Program-made: the position numbers and the translations under genes
Part shown: positions 3,601 through 63,918 of the stretch, in pieces
Layout of the letters: every line of letters starts with the position of its first letter
Position numbering within the stretch: the first letter of the stretch is position 1
Assembly: GCF_024223415.1 (NCBI RefSeq)
Contig: NZ_CP100500.1
Reading direction: 5' to 3' (one strand)
Source of the DNA: Escherichia coli
GTDB lineage: Bacteria; Pseudomonadota; Gammaproteobacteria; Enterobacterales; Enterobacteriaceae
DNA: 64,000 nt
The notes under the pieces: model-generated
Seen by the model: only the letters and a program-made list of their open reading frames with translations
Databases searched by the model: none
Told to the model about the DNA's origin: nothing

Positions 3601-4716
3601 ATGGTTACGCCAGTAAGCATCAGCAATTACATATCTCTTCCTGATGATTTTCCCGTTCGTAATATTGCACCGAAGATAAAAGAAGTTTTAAAGGATTTTA
3701 TTGATGCACTTAGTACAATAATATGTAATGAAGAGTGGCGCACGTCTTTAAACATCAACTCAGCCACAAAAAAGATATTTAATAATCTTGACAACTTATC
3801 ATATATTCAGAGGACTTCTTTTCGGGGTAACGACACGCTATACAATGAAAAGGTTCAGTTTAAACTCACTTATCCCGCCAGGAATGGAAGACACAAAGAA
3901 AATATTGAATTTCAGGTAGTAATAAATTTAAGCCCTATTTATTTAGATAATTTCCGCCATGATGGAGAAATTAATATTTTTTGCGCTCCCAACCCAAAGC
4001 CTGTTACTATGGGGCGCGTATTTCAGACCGGCGTCGAGCGTGTGCTCTTTCTGTTTCTGAATGATTTTATTGAACAATTCCCAATGATCAACCCTGGCGT
4101 TCCCATCAAAAGAGCGCATACACCACATATTGAACCCCTGCCTCCGGATCACCATACCGCTGCAGATTACTTACGCCAGTTTGATTTGCTTGTCCTGAAT
4201 TTTATCTCTCGCGGTAATTTTGTCATACTCCCCCGATTATGGAATAACTCTGAGGTTCACAGATGGTTCGTCAATAAAGATCCTAACTTGATCACCGCCA
4301 TTCTCGACATAACGGACAGCGAATTAAAAGAGGATTTATTGCAAAGCCTGATGGATTCATTAGGTTCTAACAAACATGTACTACCCGAAGTCTGCATCTG
4401 TTTTTTATCCCTTTTAGCAGAACAAGAATCTCCTCATTTTCAGGACTTGTTTTTATTTTTCGCCAATATGTTGTTACACTATCACCAATTTATGAATCCC
4501 AATGAAAGTGATTTGAATGACGTGTTGATGCCAGCATCATTAAGTGATGATAAAATTATCAAACATATGGCGCGCAAGACCCTCAAACTTTTTGTAAAAA
4601 ATGAAACACCGCCAAAAGTTACTCATGAAGACCTGGTGAAAAACAGGCCTCGCTCCCCTGTCAGACCACCTATACCCGCAACCTCCAAAACGCCAGACAT
4701 TCCTGATCGTCATTAA
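3601..4716 (+). CDS. yneK: Uncharacterised protein YneK, 371 aa
   Basis: Long ORF with AT-rich codon usage, atypical for the flanking core genes; matches the position and length of K-12 yneK. Confidence 0.7.
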   Translation: MVTPVSISNYISLPDDFPVRNIAPKIKEVLKDFIDALSTIICNEEWRTSLNINSATKKIFNNLDNLSYIQRTSFRGNDTLYNEKVQFKLTYPARNGRHKENIEFQVVINLSPIYLDNFRHDGEINIFCAPNPKPVTMGRVFQTGVERVLFLFLNDFIEQFPMINPGVPIKRAHTPHIEPLPPDHHTAADYLRQFDLLVLNFISRGNFVILPRLWNNSEVHRWFVNKDPNLITAILDITDSELKEDLLQSLMDSLGSNKHVLPEVCICFLSLLAEQESPHFQDLFLFFANMLLHYHQFMNPNESDLNDVLMPASLSDDKIIKHMARKTLKLFVKNETPPKVTHEDLVKNRPRSPVRPPIPATSKTPDIPDRH

Positions 4717-54310: not shown

Positions 54311-54597
54311 ACTACAACATGCTTAGGGCAAGTCACGAAGGAAGTCAGAAAGTAGTCGTAAGAACGGTGATCACTGTCCGCTTTGTGCCAGGAGCAGCCA
54401 TTGCTAAGTCCATCCTGTATTGTGCAGGTCAGCTCGTTTTTAAAGAGTCCGGCCATCATCTTACTGGTACAGACACCATATACTTTGTGACGGTCAGGCT
54501 ACATATGCACAACTCAACTTATTCATCTATTTTTTGCTTTAGCATGTCAGTGTTGCTTTCTCGTCGGCGGGTGAGCGGTGACCTGACCTGTCGATAA
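54292..54597 (+). CDS. Possible YdfV-like ORF, 101 aa (weak)
   Basis: ORF in the position of K-12 ydfV; overlaps the relO region; no clear SD. Confidence 0.3.
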   Translation: MSLQVSHYNMLRASHEGSQKVVVRTVITVRFVPGAAIAKSILYCAGQLVFKESGHHLTGTDTIYFVTVRLHMHNSTYSSIFCFSMSVLLSRRRVSGDLTCR

Positions 54598-54749
54598 AGG
54601 AACGTAGCACGTTTTATGCAACACCCGCATGCGGCAGAAAATTATTGCCGAACGTTTACCCCTGTCAACAAGCTTTACTTTCTGAGGCGCGCCAGCCCGC
54701 GAGGAAAACAATCTGAACATCAAAGAATTAATGACACAAGAAATACGAT

Positions 54750-54776
54750 TAAAGATTTTTTTGTGCATGCCGATAG
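54750..54776 (+). promoter_or_regulatory. FliA (sigma-28) promoter of flxA: TAAAGATT-N11-GCCGATAG
   Basis: Close match to the sigma-28 consensus TAAAGTTT-N11-GCCGATAA, about 25 nt upstream of flxA. Confidence 0.65.
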
Positions 54777-54799
54777 TGCTTTTTTAAAAGGAGAAATCT

Positions 54800-55132
54800 A
54801 TGTCTGTCACAATTCAGGGAAATACCTCAACCGTTATTTCAAACAACTCCGCCCCGGAAGGAACATCAGAAATAGCCAAAATCACAAGACAAATTCAGGT
54901 GCTGACTGAAAAGCTTGGGAAAATCTCATCGGAAGAGGGGATGACGACACAGCAGAAAAAAGAAATGGCTGCATTGGTACAGAAGCAAATTGAAAGCCTC
55001 TGGGCTCAACTGGAGCAGTTGTTAAGGCAGCAGGCAGAGAAAAAGAATGAAGACGCGACAGTTCAGCCTGATAAAAAAGAAGAGAAAAAAGACGATACAA
55101 ATACCGCTGGCACCATTGATATTTACGTCTAA
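54800..55132 (+). CDS. flxA: FlxA (FliA-regulated protein), 110 aa
   Basis: AAGGAGA SD; Gln/Lys-rich sequence. Confidence 0.85.
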   Translation: MSVTIQGNTSTVISNNSAPEGTSEIAKITRQIQVLTEKLGKISSEEGMTTQQKKEMAALVQKQIESLWAQLEQLLRQQAEKKNEDATVQPDKKEEKKDDTNTAGTIDIYV

Positions 55133-55146
55133 GTGACAGCCGTATT

Positions 55147-55169
55147 GTGGCCCTCATCGGGCCACTTTT
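55147..55169 (+). terminator. Rho-independent terminator of flxA
   Basis: GTGGCCC-tcatc-GGGCCAC stem followed by TTTTC. Confidence 0.6.
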
Positions 55170-55221
55170 CGCCATCAGCCTTTTCTTTAAAGACATATTA
55201 TCTTTGTATCATTTCTGATAG

Positions 55222-56984
55222 TTAACATTACAAGATATAAGTAATGGACGCACTCCCAATTAGTCTATTTAAATCGCCACGAGTTTAACTGACAACCCAT
55301 GATCAATTATGAATTGCAACTATTTCTGTAGTCACTTTTGTGGGGACAGTCCACAAAACTGCCAACTTCCGCTTCTTGCTCTTAGCGGACATTAGCATAG
55401 GCTATTTACCATAACGCCTCATTACGCGCACCGCCCAGACTGACTCAGCGCGTTTCTGGCATATCCCCGGTAAAACAAGTAACAACCCCCCCGAAAATGA
55501 ACACCAGAAACGCGACTTAAGAATCTACCCTATGAATGGATATGCACTCAACCGAATCGATCTTGGTTTCAATCTATTTTATCGGGATCAGGCTTCTTTT
55601 TAGGTAACTTCGGGGGCTTAACTTGCTGATGACTTTGCGTTCGGCGCGTAAGCCAGGGATGGTCAGCTTTAGATTTAACATAGTATTTTGAGCGTAAATC
55701 AATACGGGCATTATCCACTCGTTCATGGACACTCTTTTCATCATCCAGTGGTATAGGCTCCGGGCCATCAACATACTTTTCCCAGCCCAGCGCTTTCCCG
55801 TCATACAGAACGTTAATTTCACCGTCAAAGTTCTCACATACAGTAACAACCGAATGCCTAAGTCGATATCCCCGGCCCTCACTGCGTACCTGAAACGCAC
55901 TGCTTTTGTACTGGAAAGTGAGATTTTTAGACAGAACGCGCTTCGCCTGTAGGCTGAAGATATAACCCAGTTCCTCTTCAGAATGGTGCACATCAAGATG
56001 AGCATTATCAGTAGTACGAGGCGACGTAGCGAACCGGTTGTTATAGGCTTCAATAAAGGTCGGCAACCATGCATTTGCTGTTTCAATATCACTGATATTC
56101 TGAAGCCGCATTTCTTTGACCAGCCTGTCCTGTAGTGTCTGATTGGCGCGCTCTACCCGCCCTTTTGCCTGCGGGCTGTTGGCATGGATTGGCTCGATGC
56201 CCAGTGTCTTTATCGCACGAGTGAACTGGGTCAGCTCACCTTCCCGCTCTGGGTTATTTACCCTGAATATACTGTGTCTATCAGAGTAGAGAGCGAGCGG
56301 TACGCCATGATCATTGAGGTAACCCCGGAGGGTTTCCATGTAAGCCCGGGTTGTTTCAGCAGGCACAAAACGCAACGCCATCAACGCACTGGTGGCATCA
56401 TCAATGAAAACGATCAGTGTACATCTGGGGCCTCGATTTTCAAACCAGTCATGAGGTGAGCCATCAATCTGGATCAGTTCACCGTAAGATGGTCGTCGCA
56501 TGCGGCGTTGATATATACGGGCAATTTTACGACGGCGTTCACGCCATAACCCCTCTTCTATCATCCACTTTCTGAGAGTTTCAACGGATAAAGATAAACC
56601 GTGTATCTCGCGCAATTTTTCGCACGCAAACGTAGGTCCAAAATCAGCGTAACGGCCTTTGAGGAGTGAAATTACTGTTGCTCTGAATTCAGTAGAAAAG
56701 AAATTATTAGGACGCTTTCCACGTCGGTGGGAAACCAGACCAGAAGGCCCTTCATTTCTATACCGTTGCACCAGACGTTTAACCTGCCGAATAGAAATGC
56801 CAATGCGTGCCGCAGCTTGTTCCTGAGTAATATGTCGATTAATTGACTCCTGAATAATCTGAAGTCGGTGGAGTTCCTTATGACTCATCGTAACAGCTCT
56901 TTGATCATGAAAAATCCCCCAGAGAATTGTCTGGGGACATTTTAGAATGGTTCAAAGGGGACATTACAGCTTGGTGTTAACAAT
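55222..56984 (-). mobile_element. Insertion sequence-like element carrying one DDE transposase; boundaries not resolved
   Basis: Transposase gene with 5' leader and a 3' non-coding tail; degenerate inverted similarity GTTAACA...CAAG...GTAATG at both ends; interrupts the 3' end of a phage replication-region ORF. Confidence 0.3.
55569..56888 (-). CDS. DDE transposase with N-terminal HTH and rve (integrase core) domain; IS481/ISNCY-like, 439 aa
   Basis: N-terminal HTH (AARIGISIRQVKRLVQRY) followed by D...D...E integrase-core spacing. Confidence 0.85.
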   Translation of the reverse strand: MSHKELHRLQIIQESINRHITQEQAAARIGISIRQVKRLVQRYRNEGPSGLVSHRRGKRPNNFFSTEFRATVISLLKGRYADFGPTFACEKLREIHGLSLSVETLRKWMIEEGLWRERRRKIARIYQRRMRRPSYGELIQIDGSPHDWFENRGPRCTLIVFIDDATSALMALRFVPAETTRAYMETLRGYLNDHGVPLALYSDRHSIFRVNNPEREGELTQFTRAIKTLGIEPIHANSPQAKGRVERANQTLQDRLVKEMRLQNISDIETANAWLPTFIEAYNNRFATSPRTTDNAHLDVHHSEEELGYIFSLQAKRVLSKNLTFQYKSSAFQVRSEGRGYRLRHSVVTVCENFDGEINVLYDGKALGWEKYVDGPEPIPLDDEKSVHERVDNARIDLRSKYYVKSKADHPWLTRRTQSHQQVKPPKLPKKKPDPDKID

Positions 56985-61446: not shown

Positions 61447-63918
61447 ATGAGTAAAGTCTTTATTTGCGCCGCTATTCCTGACGAACTGGCAACAAGGGAA
61501 GAAGGCGCTGTGGCTGTAGCCACAGCCATTGAAGCTGGCGACGAACGCCGTGCTCGAGCAAAATTTCACTGGCAATTCCTGGAACATTATCCGGCTGCTC
61601 AGGACTGCGCTTATAAATTTATTGTCTGCGAGGATAAACCTGGCATACCCCGCCCTGCCCTCGATTCATGGGATGCTGAATATATGCAGGAAAACCGCTG
61701 GGATGAGGAGTCTGCTTCTTTTGTCCCGGTTGAGACTGAATCCGATCCGATGAACGTCACTTTTGACAAGCTGGCCCCTGAAGTACAGAACGCTGTCATG
61801 GTTAAGTTCGACACATGTGAAAACATCACCGTTGATATGGTTATTAGCGCACAGGAATTGTTGCAGGAAGACATGGCAACATTCGACGGACATATCGTTG
61901 AAGCGTTGATGAAAATGCCAGAAGTTAACGCCATGTATCCGGAGCTTAAGTTGCACGCCATTGGGTGGGTTAAGCATAAATGTATTCCTGGTGCTAAATG
62001 GCCCGAAATTCAGGCAGAGATGCGCATCTGGAAAAAACGTCGCGAAGGTGAACGCAAGGAAACCGGAAAATACACGTCTGTTGTTGATCTCGCCCGCGCC
62101 AGAGCCAATCAACAGTACACTGAAAATTCAACAGGAAAAATCAGCCCGGTCATTGCTGCCATTCATCGCGAATACAAGCAGACATGGAAAACACTGGATG
62201 ACGAACTGGCCTACGCTCTCTGGCCTGGTGATGTGGATGCCGGAAACATTGACGGCAGCATCCATCGCTGGGCAAAAAAAGAAGTTATCGACAACGACCG
62301 CGAAGACTGGAAGCGTATCTCGGCATCAATGCGCAAACAGCCTGATGCCCTTCGCTACGACCGCCAAACTATTTTTGGCCTTGTCCGTGAGCGTCCGATC
62401 GACATTCACAAAGATCCCGTAGCACTGAACAAATATACCTGCGAATACCTGACGACAAAGGGCGTGTTTGAGAATGAAGAAACAGACCTGGGCACTGTTG
62501 ATGTTCTCCAGTCATCAGAAACACAAACTGATGCAGTGGAAACTGAGGTATCTGATATCCCAAAAAATGAAACCGCGCCGGAAGCTGAACCATCTGTAGA
62601 GCGTGAGGGGCCGTTCTATTTCCTCTTCGCAGATAAGGACGGAGAAAAATACGGTCGCGCAAACAAACTTTCTGGTCTGGATAAGGCACTGGCTGCTGGC
62701 GCCACTGAAATCACAAAAGAAGAATATTTTGCCCGAAAAAATGGCACATACACGGGCTTACCGCAAAATGTAGATACCGCTGAAGATTCAGAACAACCAG
62801 AGCCGATAAAAGTTACCGCTGACGAAGTAAACAAAATTATGCAGGCAGCCAATATCAGCCAGCCTGACGCCGATAAGTTGCTTGCTGCATCACGTGGTGA
62901 ATTTGTTGAAGGGATTAGTGACCCGAATGATCCGAAATGGGTTAAGGGGATCCAGACCCGCGATTCTGTGAACCAGAACCAGCATGAATCGGAACGGAAC
63001 TACCAAAAAGCGGAACAAAACAGTCCAAATGCGTTACAAAACGAGCCAGAAACGAAACAGCCTGAACCAGTGGCGCACCAGGAAGTGGAAAAAGCCTGCA
63101 CCGCCTGCGGTCAGACCGGCGGCGGCAACTGCCCTGATTGTGGCGCGGTGATGGGCGACGCAACATACCAGGAAACATTCGATGAAGAGTATCAGGTTGA
63201 AGTTCAGGAAGATGATCCGGAGGAAATGGAAGGCGCTGAACATCCACACAAGGAGAACACTGGCGGCAATCAGCATCACAATAGCGATAATGAAACTGGC
63301 GAGACGGCAGATCACCCAATTAAGGTGAACGGTCATCACGAAATCACATCCACCAGCAGGACGTGTGACCATCTAATGATCGACCTTGAAACCATGGGAA
63401 AAAATCCTGATGCCCCGATCATCTCAATAGGTGCAATATTTTTCGATCCGCAAACCGGAGATATGGGACCGGAATTTAGTAAGACTATCGATCTGGAAAC
63501 TGCTGGCGGAGTCATTGATCGGGACACCATTAAATGGTGGCTTAAGCAATCACGCGAAGCGCAATCTGCCATTATGACCGATGAAATCCCGTTAGATGAT
63601 GCACTGTTACAATTGCGGGAATTTATCGACGAAAACTCCGGTGAATTTTTTGTTCAGGTTTGGGGAAATGGAGCCAACTTCGACAACACGATTTTGCGCC
63701 GTTCATACGAACGGCAGGGGATCCCCTGCCCGTGGCGTTACTACAACGATCGCGATGTACGCACAATCGTTGAGCTGGGGAAAGCCATAGACTTCGATGC
63801 CAGAACGGCTATTCCATTCGAAGGTGAGCGCCATAATGCACTTGATGACGCCCGTTACCAGGCAAAATACGTTTCAGTTATCTGGCAAAAACTGATCCCA
63901 AGTCAGGCTGATTCTTAA
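61447..63918 (+). CDS. YdfE-like protein with central zinc ribbon and C-terminal DEDDh 3'-5' exonuclease (DnaQ-like) domain, 823 aa
   Basis: C-terminal motifs MIDLET (Exo I), WGNGANFD (Exo II), [10 protein letters not shown] (Exo III); CTACGQ...CPDCG zinc ribbon. Confidence 0.75.

What the first reader, a model, noticed from the sequence alone, without database searches (positions are those of the whole stretch)
54750..55169. Flagellar sigma-28 promoter driving flxA inside the prophage
A near-consensus FliA promoter (TAAAGATT-N11-GCCGATAG) precedes flxA, which ends in a strong terminator, so a prophage-borne gene is wired into the host flagellar class 3 regulon.
Basis: partly seen in the sequence, partly recalled or inferred. 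Interest (0 to 1): 0.3.

Follow-up and report, generated by a model that had tools for sequence, protein, structure and literature searches.

The report
Known FliA promoter of prophage flxA
This is the well-studied flxA gene of the E. coli Qin-type prophage, whose flagellar sigma-28 (FliA) promoter was shown experimentally in 1997 and confirmed genome-wide since, so the finding is correct but already known.

Summary
TAAAGATT (54750-54757), an 11-nt spacer and GCCGATAG (54769-54776) lie 22 nt upstream of a 110-codon ORF (54800-55132). That ORF is followed by a GC-rich hairpin and TTTT (55147-55169). The motif is the only match with up to 2 mismatches in the window (0.03 expected). It is also the top hit of a position weight matrix (PWM) built from published FliA sites.

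From the promoter through the terminator the sequence is identical to E. coli K-12 MG1655 flxA. The gene sits in the same Qin-type prophage context (hokD-relE-relB-ydfV-flxA).

- Ide & Kutsukake 1997 described FliA-dependent expression that is dispensable for motility.
- Fitzgerald 2014 found a FliA ChIP-seq peak on this 28-mer, with RNA at 280 in the motile strain and 2 in a fliA deletion.
- Zhao 2007 and Shimada 2017 give further support.

Two refinements come from this work:
- "Strong terminator" is overstated. The hairpin is -14.5 kcal/mol but only four U follow it.
- The sigma-28 promoter belongs to the whole FlxA-like family. In 11 other contexts, down to roughly 30% identity, the best sigma-28 hit of the locus lies 22-31 nt upstream of the gene. 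Some of these are chromosomal genes of Enterobacter and Pantoea lineages. The phage therefore probably carries a gene that was already wired.

FlxA's function remains unknown.

The parts
54750..54757 (+). Sigma-28 (FliA) -35 element, TAAAGATT (consensus TAAAGTTT, 7 of 8)
   Evidence: Sequence read. Only match with up to 2 mismatches in the window. PWM rank 1. Same 28-mer under the FliA ChIP-seq peak in K-12.
54758..54768 (+). 11-nt spacer, TTTTTGTGCAT
   Evidence: Three of the five variant promoter types among 40 prophage-derived contigs differ only in the spacer. The other two change the first or second base of the -10 octamer to bases also seen at published FliA sites. The spacer also differs freely between distant homologues.
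54769..54776 (+). Sigma-28 -10 element, GCCGATAG (consensus GCCGATAA, 7 of 8)
   Evidence: The core CCGATA is invariant in all 12 FlxA-family promoters compared.
54783..54786 (+). Expected transcription start, about 7-10 nt after the -10 element. This is inferred, not measured here.
   Evidence: Inferred from the usual geometry of FliA promoters. It would give a 5' UTR of about 15-17 nt. No start-site data were consulted.
54788..54793 (+). Shine-Dalgarno sequence AAGGAG, 6 nt before the ATG
   Evidence: Sequence.
54800..55132 (+). flxA coding sequence, 110 aa plus stop; FlxA-like family protein
   Evidence: ORF. Pfam PF14282, E = 2.3e-14. PHROG 11044, unknown function. DNA identical to K-12 flxA (WP_001301033.1). 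AlphaFold2 model is a helical hairpin (helices 24-42 and 50-86) with disordered ends.
55147..55169 (+). Probable intrinsic terminator: 7-bp stem (6 G-C pairs), 5-nt loop, then UUUU
   Evidence: Fold of -14.5 kcal/mol, z = -4.65. Retained in 35 of 40 prophage contigs. The 65%-identical homologue has GTGGCCCTCACAGGGCCATTTTATTG. Not called by the simple scan, because only 4 T follow the stem.

Best explanation
This is flxA of a Qin-type lambdoid prophage of E. coli. It is a self-contained transcription unit (own promoter, ribosome-binding site, 110-codon gene, hairpin terminator) set against the direction of the phage early-right and late genes.

RNA polymerase carrying the flagellar sigma factor FliA (sigma-28) recognises TAAAGATT-N11-GCCGATAG and starts transcription a few bases downstream. 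FliA is held inactive by FlgM until the hook-basal body is complete. FlxA is therefore made as a class 3 (late) product in the repressed lysogen, together with flagellin and the chemotaxis proteins.

What is shown: the sequence features, their identity to K-12, and, from published experiments on that identical sequence, FliA binding and near-total FliA dependence of the mRNA.

What is inferred: the exact start site, termination at the hairpin, and the origin of the wiring. The sigma-28 promoter sits in the same position in FlxA-like genes of other contexts. These include chromosomal genes between gltX and yfeR in Enterobacter and Pantoea lineages. The promoter and gene were therefore most likely acquired by the phage as one unit, like a moron, rather than the phage evolving a new connection.

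FlxA's biochemical role is unknown. It is a small coiled-coil hairpin with disordered ends. My guess, at low confidence, is an accessory or modulatory protein tied to late flagellar assembly or motility behaviour.
For: Sequence anatomy and significance:
- Features read and ORF.
- Only match with up to 2 mismatches, 0.03 expected.
- PWM rank 1 of 127,946 positions.

Identity and context:
- Promoter, gene and terminator identical to K-12 MG1655.
- Same neighbours hokD-relE-relB-ydfV-flxA-ydfW.

Published experiments on that sequence:
- FliA ChIP-seq on the same 28-mer; RNA 280 versus 2 in the fliA deletion.
- -28.4-fold in a fliA deletion and +8.2-fold on induction.
- Sigma-28 holoenzyme SELEX peak.
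- 35-fold up in strains with motility-activating flhDC-upstream mutations.
- Changes in the same direction as flagellar genes in other transcriptomes.
- Original report cited.

Moron layout:
- The 48.7-kb phage record PhiR42_1 carries an identical flxA in the same slot, opposite in direction to cro-O-Q-lysis-head.
- PhiR42_1 is the only one of 50,697 phage records with a FlxA match. Related phages that share the window's right half were not among the FlxA hits.

Family-wide promoter:
- In 11 other loci (26-86% protein identity) the best sigma-28 PWM hit of the whole locus, both strands, lies 22-31 nt upstream of the FlxA-like start codon.
- CCGATA is invariant while spacers vary.
- All 40 IMG/VR contigs keep the motif at rank 1.
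Against: - Nothing in the window shows that this host has a functional fliA/flhDC system.
- No experiment was done on this strain.
- The U tract of the terminator is short, so some read-through toward the IS element downstream is possible.
- The family-wide promoter sites were picked by the same PWM that scores them, so the information-content figures are partly circular. The rank-1 status and the fixed distance to the start codon are the independent evidence.
- Three distant loci score only 10-15 bits (L009, L011, L016).
- The direction of transfer, chromosome to phage or the reverse, is not resolved.
Confidence: 0.96

Rival explanations
1. The motif is a chance match. flxA is instead transcribed from a sigma-70 promoter or by read-through from ydfV or from phage promoters.
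For: At up to 3 mismatches the pattern is expected 0.58 times per window, so loose matches mean little. Many intragenic FliA-like motifs in E. coli bind FliA without regulating any gene.
Against: - The match has 2 mismatches, where 0.03 are expected.
- It is the top PWM hit in the window.
- No sigma-70-like site on the + strand was found near flxA.
- flxA RNA falls from 280 to 2 without fliA on the identical K-12 sequence.
- The motif is kept at the same distance from the start codon in homologues with unrelated flanks.
Confidence: 0.01
2. The prophage evolved the sigma-28 promoter itself, as a phage adaptation that couples a phage function to host motility. An example would be protection against flagellum-dependent phages. 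The chromosomal FlxA-like genes would then be domesticated phage genes.
For: - The closest relatives of Qin FlxA (64-86% identity) sit in mobile contexts: an integrase/IS island (L004-L006), beside a TraI relaxase (L018), and in prophage contigs.
- flxA occurs in only about 22% of complete E. coli genomes.
Against: - More distant family members lie in a conserved chromosomal neighbourhood, gltX - flxA-like - yfeR - yfeH - ypeB-like - ligA. The contigs carry proteins assigned to Enterobacter roggenkampii, Pantoea and Erwinia clusters, and no phage genes are nearby.
- These copies carry the sigma-28 motif too.
- FlxA gives no hit in the PADLOC defence library.
- Only one of 50,697 phage records encodes it.
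Confidence: 0.12
3. flxA is a decaying, functionless passenger. Its FliA-dependent transcription is regulatory noise, like the many non-productive FliA sites in E. coli.
For: - Dispensable for motility, according to the title of Ide & Kutsukake 1997.
- Still listed as uncharacterised in 2024.
- Present in a minority of strains.
Against: - The ORF is intact and at least 99% identical at the DNA level in 1196 of 1203 matching records.
- The protein family keeps its architecture (N-terminal tail, two helices, C-terminal IDIYV/I) down to about 30% identity.
- Promoter and ribosome-binding site are retained throughout.
- The mRNA level is comparable to chemotaxis genes: 280 versus 251 for the tar operon.
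- The protein was quantified by proteomics.
Confidence: 0.1

Closest known systems
flxA (b1566) of the E. coli K-12 Qin cryptic prophage and its promoter flxAp
   Same: Promoter, 5' UTR, coding sequence and terminator hairpin are base-for-base identical. Neighbours hokD-relE-relB-ydfV are the same. The protein is WP_001301033.1.
   Different: - Two substitutions lie upstream of the promoter, at window 54607 and 54725.
- Downstream, this window has an intact 439-aa ISNCY-family transposase where K-12 keeps only its C-terminal remnant, annotated ydfW.
- This prophage still has head, tail and replication genes that K-12 Qin has lost.
Canonical class 3 flagellar promoters of E. coli (tar, fliC, tsr, flgMN, motAB)
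   Same: Two-block TAAAGTTT-N11-GCCGATAA architecture. FliA ChIP-seq occupancy. Near-complete loss of RNA in a fliA deletion.
   Different: - A instead of T at position 6 of the -35 block, as also seen in flgMN and aer.
- G instead of A at the last position of the -10 block.
- The gene product is not needed for motility and lies in a prophage rather than in a flagellar region.
Phage morons, for example lambda bor and lom
   Same: An autonomous unit with its own promoter and terminator, inserted between phage genes. It is expressed from the repressed prophage. It is present in some related phages and absent from others.
   Different: The promoter is read by an alternative host sigma factor, so expression is tied to a host developmental programme rather than being constitutive.
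Other non-flagellar members of the FliA regulon (ycgR, yhjH/pdeH, ynjH, modA, ykfB of prophage CP4-6)
   Same: FliA-dependent genes outside the flagellar clusters. ykfB is also prophage-borne.
   Different: ycgR and pdeH have known roles in c-di-GMP control of motor speed. FlxA has none assigned.

Membership tests
Sigma-28 (FliA) dependent class 3 promoter | Two blocks resembling TAAAGTTT and GCCGATAA, separated by 11 nt | tested here: met
   14 of 16 bases with an exact 11-nt spacer. 0.03 matches expected by chance. PWM rank 1 in the window.
Sigma-28 (FliA) dependent class 3 promoter | Placed to drive a downstream gene on the same strand | tested here: met
   The 28-mer motif ends 22 nt before the flxA ATG (the -10 octamer ends 23 nt before it), with AAGGAG in between.
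Sigma-28 (FliA) dependent class 3 promoter | Bound by FliA holoenzyme | not testable with these tools
   Published for the identical K-12 sequence: ChIP-seq fold-above-threshold score 16 on this 28-mer and a genomic SELEX peak with sigma-28 holoenzyme.
Sigma-28 (FliA) dependent class 3 promoter | Expression lost without fliA and raised when fliA is induced | not testable with these tools
   Published for K-12: RNA 280 versus 2; -28.4-fold and +8.2-fold. Ide & Kutsukake 1997 is cited.
FlxA-like protein family (Pfam PF14282) | Score above the Pfam gathering threshold over most of the model | tested here: met
   53.8 bits against a cut-off of 26.3, covering model positions 2-96 of 101. DNA identical to the founding member, K-12 FlxA.
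Intrinsic (Rho-independent) terminator | Stable G+C-rich hairpin just after the stop codon | tested here: met
   7-bp stem with 6 G-C pairs, -14.5 kcal/mol, z = -4.65. It starts 15 nt after the stop codon.
Intrinsic (Rho-independent) terminator | Run of U residues immediately after the stem, usually 5 or more in 8 | tested here: inconclusive
   Only UUUU, then CGCC. The site is not reported by the consensus scan. The 65%-identical homologue has UUUUAUU. No 3'-end data were consulted.
Phage moron | Own promoter and terminator, inserted between conserved phage genes, with variable presence among related phages | tested here: met
   Lies between relB/ydfV and the replication module, opposite to the phage transcription direction, in PhiR42_1. 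Only 1 of 50,697 phage records has it, although related phages share the surrounding genes.
Phage moron | Expressed in the lysogen, independently of phage induction | not testable with these tools
   Published K-12 RNA data come from uninduced cultures.

The most novel reading that the evidence does not exclude
FlxA-like proteins may be an unrecognised, conserved late (class 3) component of the flagellar programme across Enterobacterales, and not only a Qin oddity.

The supporting points:
- The sigma-28 promoter is kept in the same place in chromosomal copies between gltX and yfeR on contigs assigned to Enterobacter and Pantoea lineages.
- It is also kept in plasmid or island copies and in the prophage copy.
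- The protein has a disordered N-terminal tail of about 20 residues and a helical hairpin. That is compatible with a substrate or partner of the flagellar export apparatus, or with a motility modulator.

The mobile copies would then give lysogens an extra dose or a variant of that function.
Probability: 0.2. Interest if true: 0.4.

Novelty: already known. Interest (0 to 1): 0.08.

Why it matters
As stated, the finding adds nothing new. flxA is a textbook-level entry in the E. coli FliA regulon, annotated in RefSeq, Pfam and regulon studies.

The modest new point is comparative. The promoter travels with the gene across the whole FlxA-like family, including chromosomal genes of other genera. 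That strengthens the case that this uncharacterised protein has a conserved role linked to flagella. It also gives a defined set of organisms in which a knockout phenotype could be sought.

Tried and rejected
- **Consensus search at up to 3 mismatches**. Not significant (0.58 expected). Tightened to 2 mismatches and replaced by a PWM.
- **Simple terminator scan**. It does not report the flxA hairpin because of the short T run, so I folded the region directly. One of those folds (L007 1956-1983) used wrong coordinates and is uninformative. That hairpin was read instead.
- **Function of FlxA.**
  - A PDB sequence-profile search returned only designed coiled coils and other helical proteins. The best, at E = 8e-6, is a 30-residue composition-type match.
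  - The AlphaFold2 model has low confidence overall (pLDDT 63.5).
  - Foldseek against the PDB gave nothing below E = 0.8.
  - PADLOC and NCBIfam gave no hit. PHROGs returned only 'unknown function' families.
  - No functional assignment is possible from these.
- **Viral-contig scan with the 18-sequence alignment.** Repeated with five closer sequences, which found only near-identical prophage copies plus two of the 86% type.
- **Literature searches.**
  - 'FlxA-like' returned nothing.
  - A six-term search with min_terms 2 was badly designed and returned irrelevant papers.
  - I found no paper giving FlxA a function. The 2024 y-ome survey still lists it as uncharacterised.
- **Not used.** I did not run the genome contigs or metagenome-contig scans. 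Eleven independent contexts were enough for a finding that is already known.

Full report
**1. The observation**

Reading window 54400-55500 shows these features:
- TAAAGATT at 54750-54757
- the 11-nt spacer TTTTTGTGCAT
- GCCGATAG at 54769-54776
- AAGGAG at 54788-54793
- an ATG at 54800 that opens a 110-codon ORF ending with TAA at 55130-55132

Fifteen bases after the stop codon lies the inverted repeat GTGGCCC-TCATC-GGGCCAC (55147-55165), followed by TTTT (55166-55169) and then CGCC.

**2. Is it more than chance?**

- Against TAAAGTTT-N11-GCCGATAA the site has two mismatches.
- With up to 2 mismatches it is the only match on either strand of the window. Dinucleotide-preserving shuffles expect 0.03 matches.
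- At up to 3 mismatches the expectation rises to 0.58. The significance therefore rests on the closeness of the match.
- As an independent measure I built a position weight matrix (PWM) from 24 FliA ChIP-seq sites of Fitzgerald et al. 2014, leaving flxA out. The flxA site is the best of 127,946 positions, at 21.8 bits, within the range of the training sites (13-29 bits).
- The runner-up, 19.1 bits at 62311..62284 on the minus strand, is antisense inside an exonuclease ORF. It is noted only in passing.

**3. What the region is**

- The ORF matches Pfam FlxA (PF14282) at 53.8 bits against a cut-off of 26.3.
- A megablast of 54300-55500 finds the region in 1305 of 5426 complete E. coli genomes, annotated ydfV and flxA.
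- The promoter-gene-terminator segment alone is found in 1200 genomes, at 99% identity or more in 1196 records.
- Aligned with K-12 MG1655, window 54598-55200 differs at two bases, both upstream of the promoter.
- The neighbours are those of the Qin prophage: essD, cspB, cspF, ydfT (Q-like antiterminator), ydfU, rem, hokD, relE, relB, ydfV, flxA, ydfW.
- The window's prophage is more complete than K-12 Qin. It has long ORFs for tail, head and terminase between about 22 and 44 kb.
- Its right half is 98.4% identical, over 70% of its length, to the 48.7-kb phage record PhiR42_1 from ECOR13.
- In that phage an identical flxA occupies the same slot. It points opposite to cro, O, Q, the lysis genes and the head genes.
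- flxA is therefore an autonomous unit inside a lambdoid prophage, with the layout of a moron.

**4. What is already known**

The interpretation has been tested on this exact sequence.
- Fitzgerald et al. [quoted passage not shown] Their Table 2 lists the 28-mer TAAAGATTTTTTTGTGCATGCCGATAGT under a FliA ChIP-seq peak (fold-above-threshold score 16). Normalised flxA RNA is 280 in motile MG1655 and 2 in the fliA deletion, flagged significant.
- Zhao et al. 2007 (PMC1935009) report -28.4-fold in a fliA deletion and +8.2-fold five minutes after sigma-F induction.
- Shimada et al. 2017 (PMC5493296) recover the ydfV/flxA spacer by genomic SELEX with sigma-28 holoenzyme alone.
- flxA rises 35-fold in strains with motility-activating flhDC-upstream mutations (PMC11237407).
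- It changes in the same direction as flagellar genes in other transcriptomes.
- The protein has been quantified by proteomics.
- The original paper is Ide & Kutsukake 1997, Gene 199:19-23. Its title states that expression depends on FliA and that the gene is dispensable for motility development. I saw only the citation.
- As of 2024 flxA is still listed among uncharacterised Qin genes.

**5. The terminator**

The hairpin is stable: -14.5 kcal/mol, z = -4.65 against shuffles. It is kept unchanged in 35 of 40 prophage-derived contigs. A version with a different loop and a longer U run (GTGGCCCTCACAGGGCCATTTTATTG) follows the 65%-identical homologue in L007.

In the window only four U follow the stem, and the consensus scan did not call it. 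I regard it as a probable intrinsic terminator of moderate strength. 'Strong' is not demonstrated, and I did not consult 3'-end mapping data.

**6. A comparative refinement**

I asked whether the sigma-28 promoter is peculiar to Qin.
- An exhaustive HMMER search found 48 cluster representatives. Full-length ones align with a shared plan: an S/T/N/G-rich N-terminal tail, two helices, a charged linker and a C-terminal IDIYV/I motif.
- I fetched genomic context for eleven distinct homologues, at 26-86% identity.
- Five lie in one conserved chromosomal neighbourhood: gltX, FlxA-like, a LysR regulator (yfeR position), an SBF-like transporter (yfeH), a small QSregVF_b protein, then ligA. These proteins belong to 90%-identity clusters whose named members come from Enterobacter roggenkampii, Pantoea, [Erwinia] mediterraneensis and an unnamed Enterobacteriaceae bacterium.
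- Others are in an integrase/IS island of Enterobacter sp. HG048 (L004-L006) or beside a TraI relaxase (L018).
- In every one of the eleven loci the top-scoring sigma-28 PWM hit of the entire locus, both strands, lies 22-31 nt upstream of the FlxA-like start codon.
- If the top hit fell at random, the chance of this is of the order of 1e-33. This treats the loci as independent, which overstates the case for the closer relatives.
- The core CCGATA is invariant in all twelve promoters, while spacers and flanks diverge.
- Scores are weak (10-15 bits) in four of the distant loci (L009, L011, L014, L016).
- All 40 IMG/VR contigs carrying flxA retain the motif. Three of the five variant promoter types differ from the window only in the spacer. 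The other two change the first or second base of the -10 octamer to bases also seen at FliA sites in Fitzgerald's table.

The most economical reading is that FliA control is an old property of the FlxA-like family. The phage would then carry a gene that arrived with its promoter, rather than having wired a phage gene into the host regulon. The direction of transfer is not proven.

**7. Mechanism**

Shown by sequence together with published experiments on the identical sequence:
- FliA holoenzyme binds this promoter.
- FliA is responsible for essentially all flxA mRNA in growing motile cells.

Following from established knowledge of the flagellar hierarchy (FlhDC, then FliA with FlgM, then class 3 genes):
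- FlxA is made only after hook-basal-body completion releases FliA from FlgM, in step with flagellin and the chemotaxis proteins.
- This happens from a repressed prophage.

Inferred:
- A start site near 54783-54786.
- Efficient translation from the AAGGAG site.
- Termination at the hairpin.

**8. Function of FlxA**

Not resolved.
- The AlphaFold2 model is a helical hairpin (residues 24-42 and 50-86) with disordered ends, at mean pLDDT 63.5.
- Foldseek finds nothing better than E = 0.8.
- A PDB profile search returns only coiled-coil-like matches.
- There are no hits in PADLOC or NCBIfam, and only 'unknown function' families in PHROGs.
- My low-confidence guess is an accessory or modulatory protein of late flagellar assembly or motility. 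An anti-phage role against flagellotropic phages is possible but unsupported.

**9. Verdict**

Novelty: already known. Interest is low. The only fresh element is the family-wide conservation of the sigma-28 promoter, which is a small step toward assigning FlxA-like proteins a flagellum-linked role.

Noticed in passing
window 62284-62311, minus strand: Second-best sigma-28 PWM hit in the window (TCCAGTCTTCGCGGTCGTTGTCGATAAC, 19.1 bits). It is antisense inside the exonuclease ORF 61447..63918. It resembles the many intragenic FliA sites that Fitzgerald 2014 reported in K-12.
   Followed up: no
window 54641-54668, minus strand: Near-consensus sigma-70-like promoter, TTGACA-16-AATAAT, 11 of 12. 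It sits in the ydfV-flxA spacer and points back through ydfV (antisense) toward relB. It could be an upstream relBE promoter, or a sign that ydfV is not a real gene.
   Followed up: no
window 55569-56888, minus strand: Intact 439-aa ISNCY-family transposase (NF033594, 463 bits; RefSeq calls the relative 'IS1202-like ISEsa1 family'). The K-12 gene 'ydfW' (49 aa) is the C-terminal remnant of this transposase, 47 of 49 residues identical.
   Followed up: partly
window 54292-54597, plus strand (ydfV): The annotated 101-aa YdfV has no match in Pfam, PHROGs, PADLOC or NCBIfam. Its coding status looks doubtful.
   Followed up: partly
L009, L011, L012, L014, L015 (FlxA-like gene at 162-479, 2590-2934, 256-591, 4001-4342, 4001-4345): Distant FlxA-like genes (26-35% identity) sit in a conserved chromosomal neighbourhood: gltX / FlxA-like / LysR (yfeR) / SBF transporter (yfeH) / QSregVF_b / ligA. 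Their protein clusters name Enterobacter, Pantoea and Erwinia. Each has a sigma-28-like motif 26-31 nt upstream of the start codon.
   Followed up: yes
L018 1-6321: A 66%-identical flxA-like gene lies directly downstream of a TraI relaxase and an ScsC-like gene. This copy is therefore on a conjugative plasmid or ICE, and it also has the sigma-28 motif.
   Followed up: partly
L059 573-1270 (E. coli ABW_A32 and several other strains): An IS1 element is inserted between ydfV and flxA, roughly 150 bp upstream of the sigma-28 promoter. The promoter and gene are left intact.
   Followed up: partly
window about 21000-64000: The prophage in this window keeps tail, head, terminase, lysis, Q, replication, immunity and exonuclease genes, unlike the truncated K-12 Qin. 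Its right half is 98.4% identical, over 70% of 39001-64000, to the phage record PhiR42_1 from ECOR13.
   Followed up: partly
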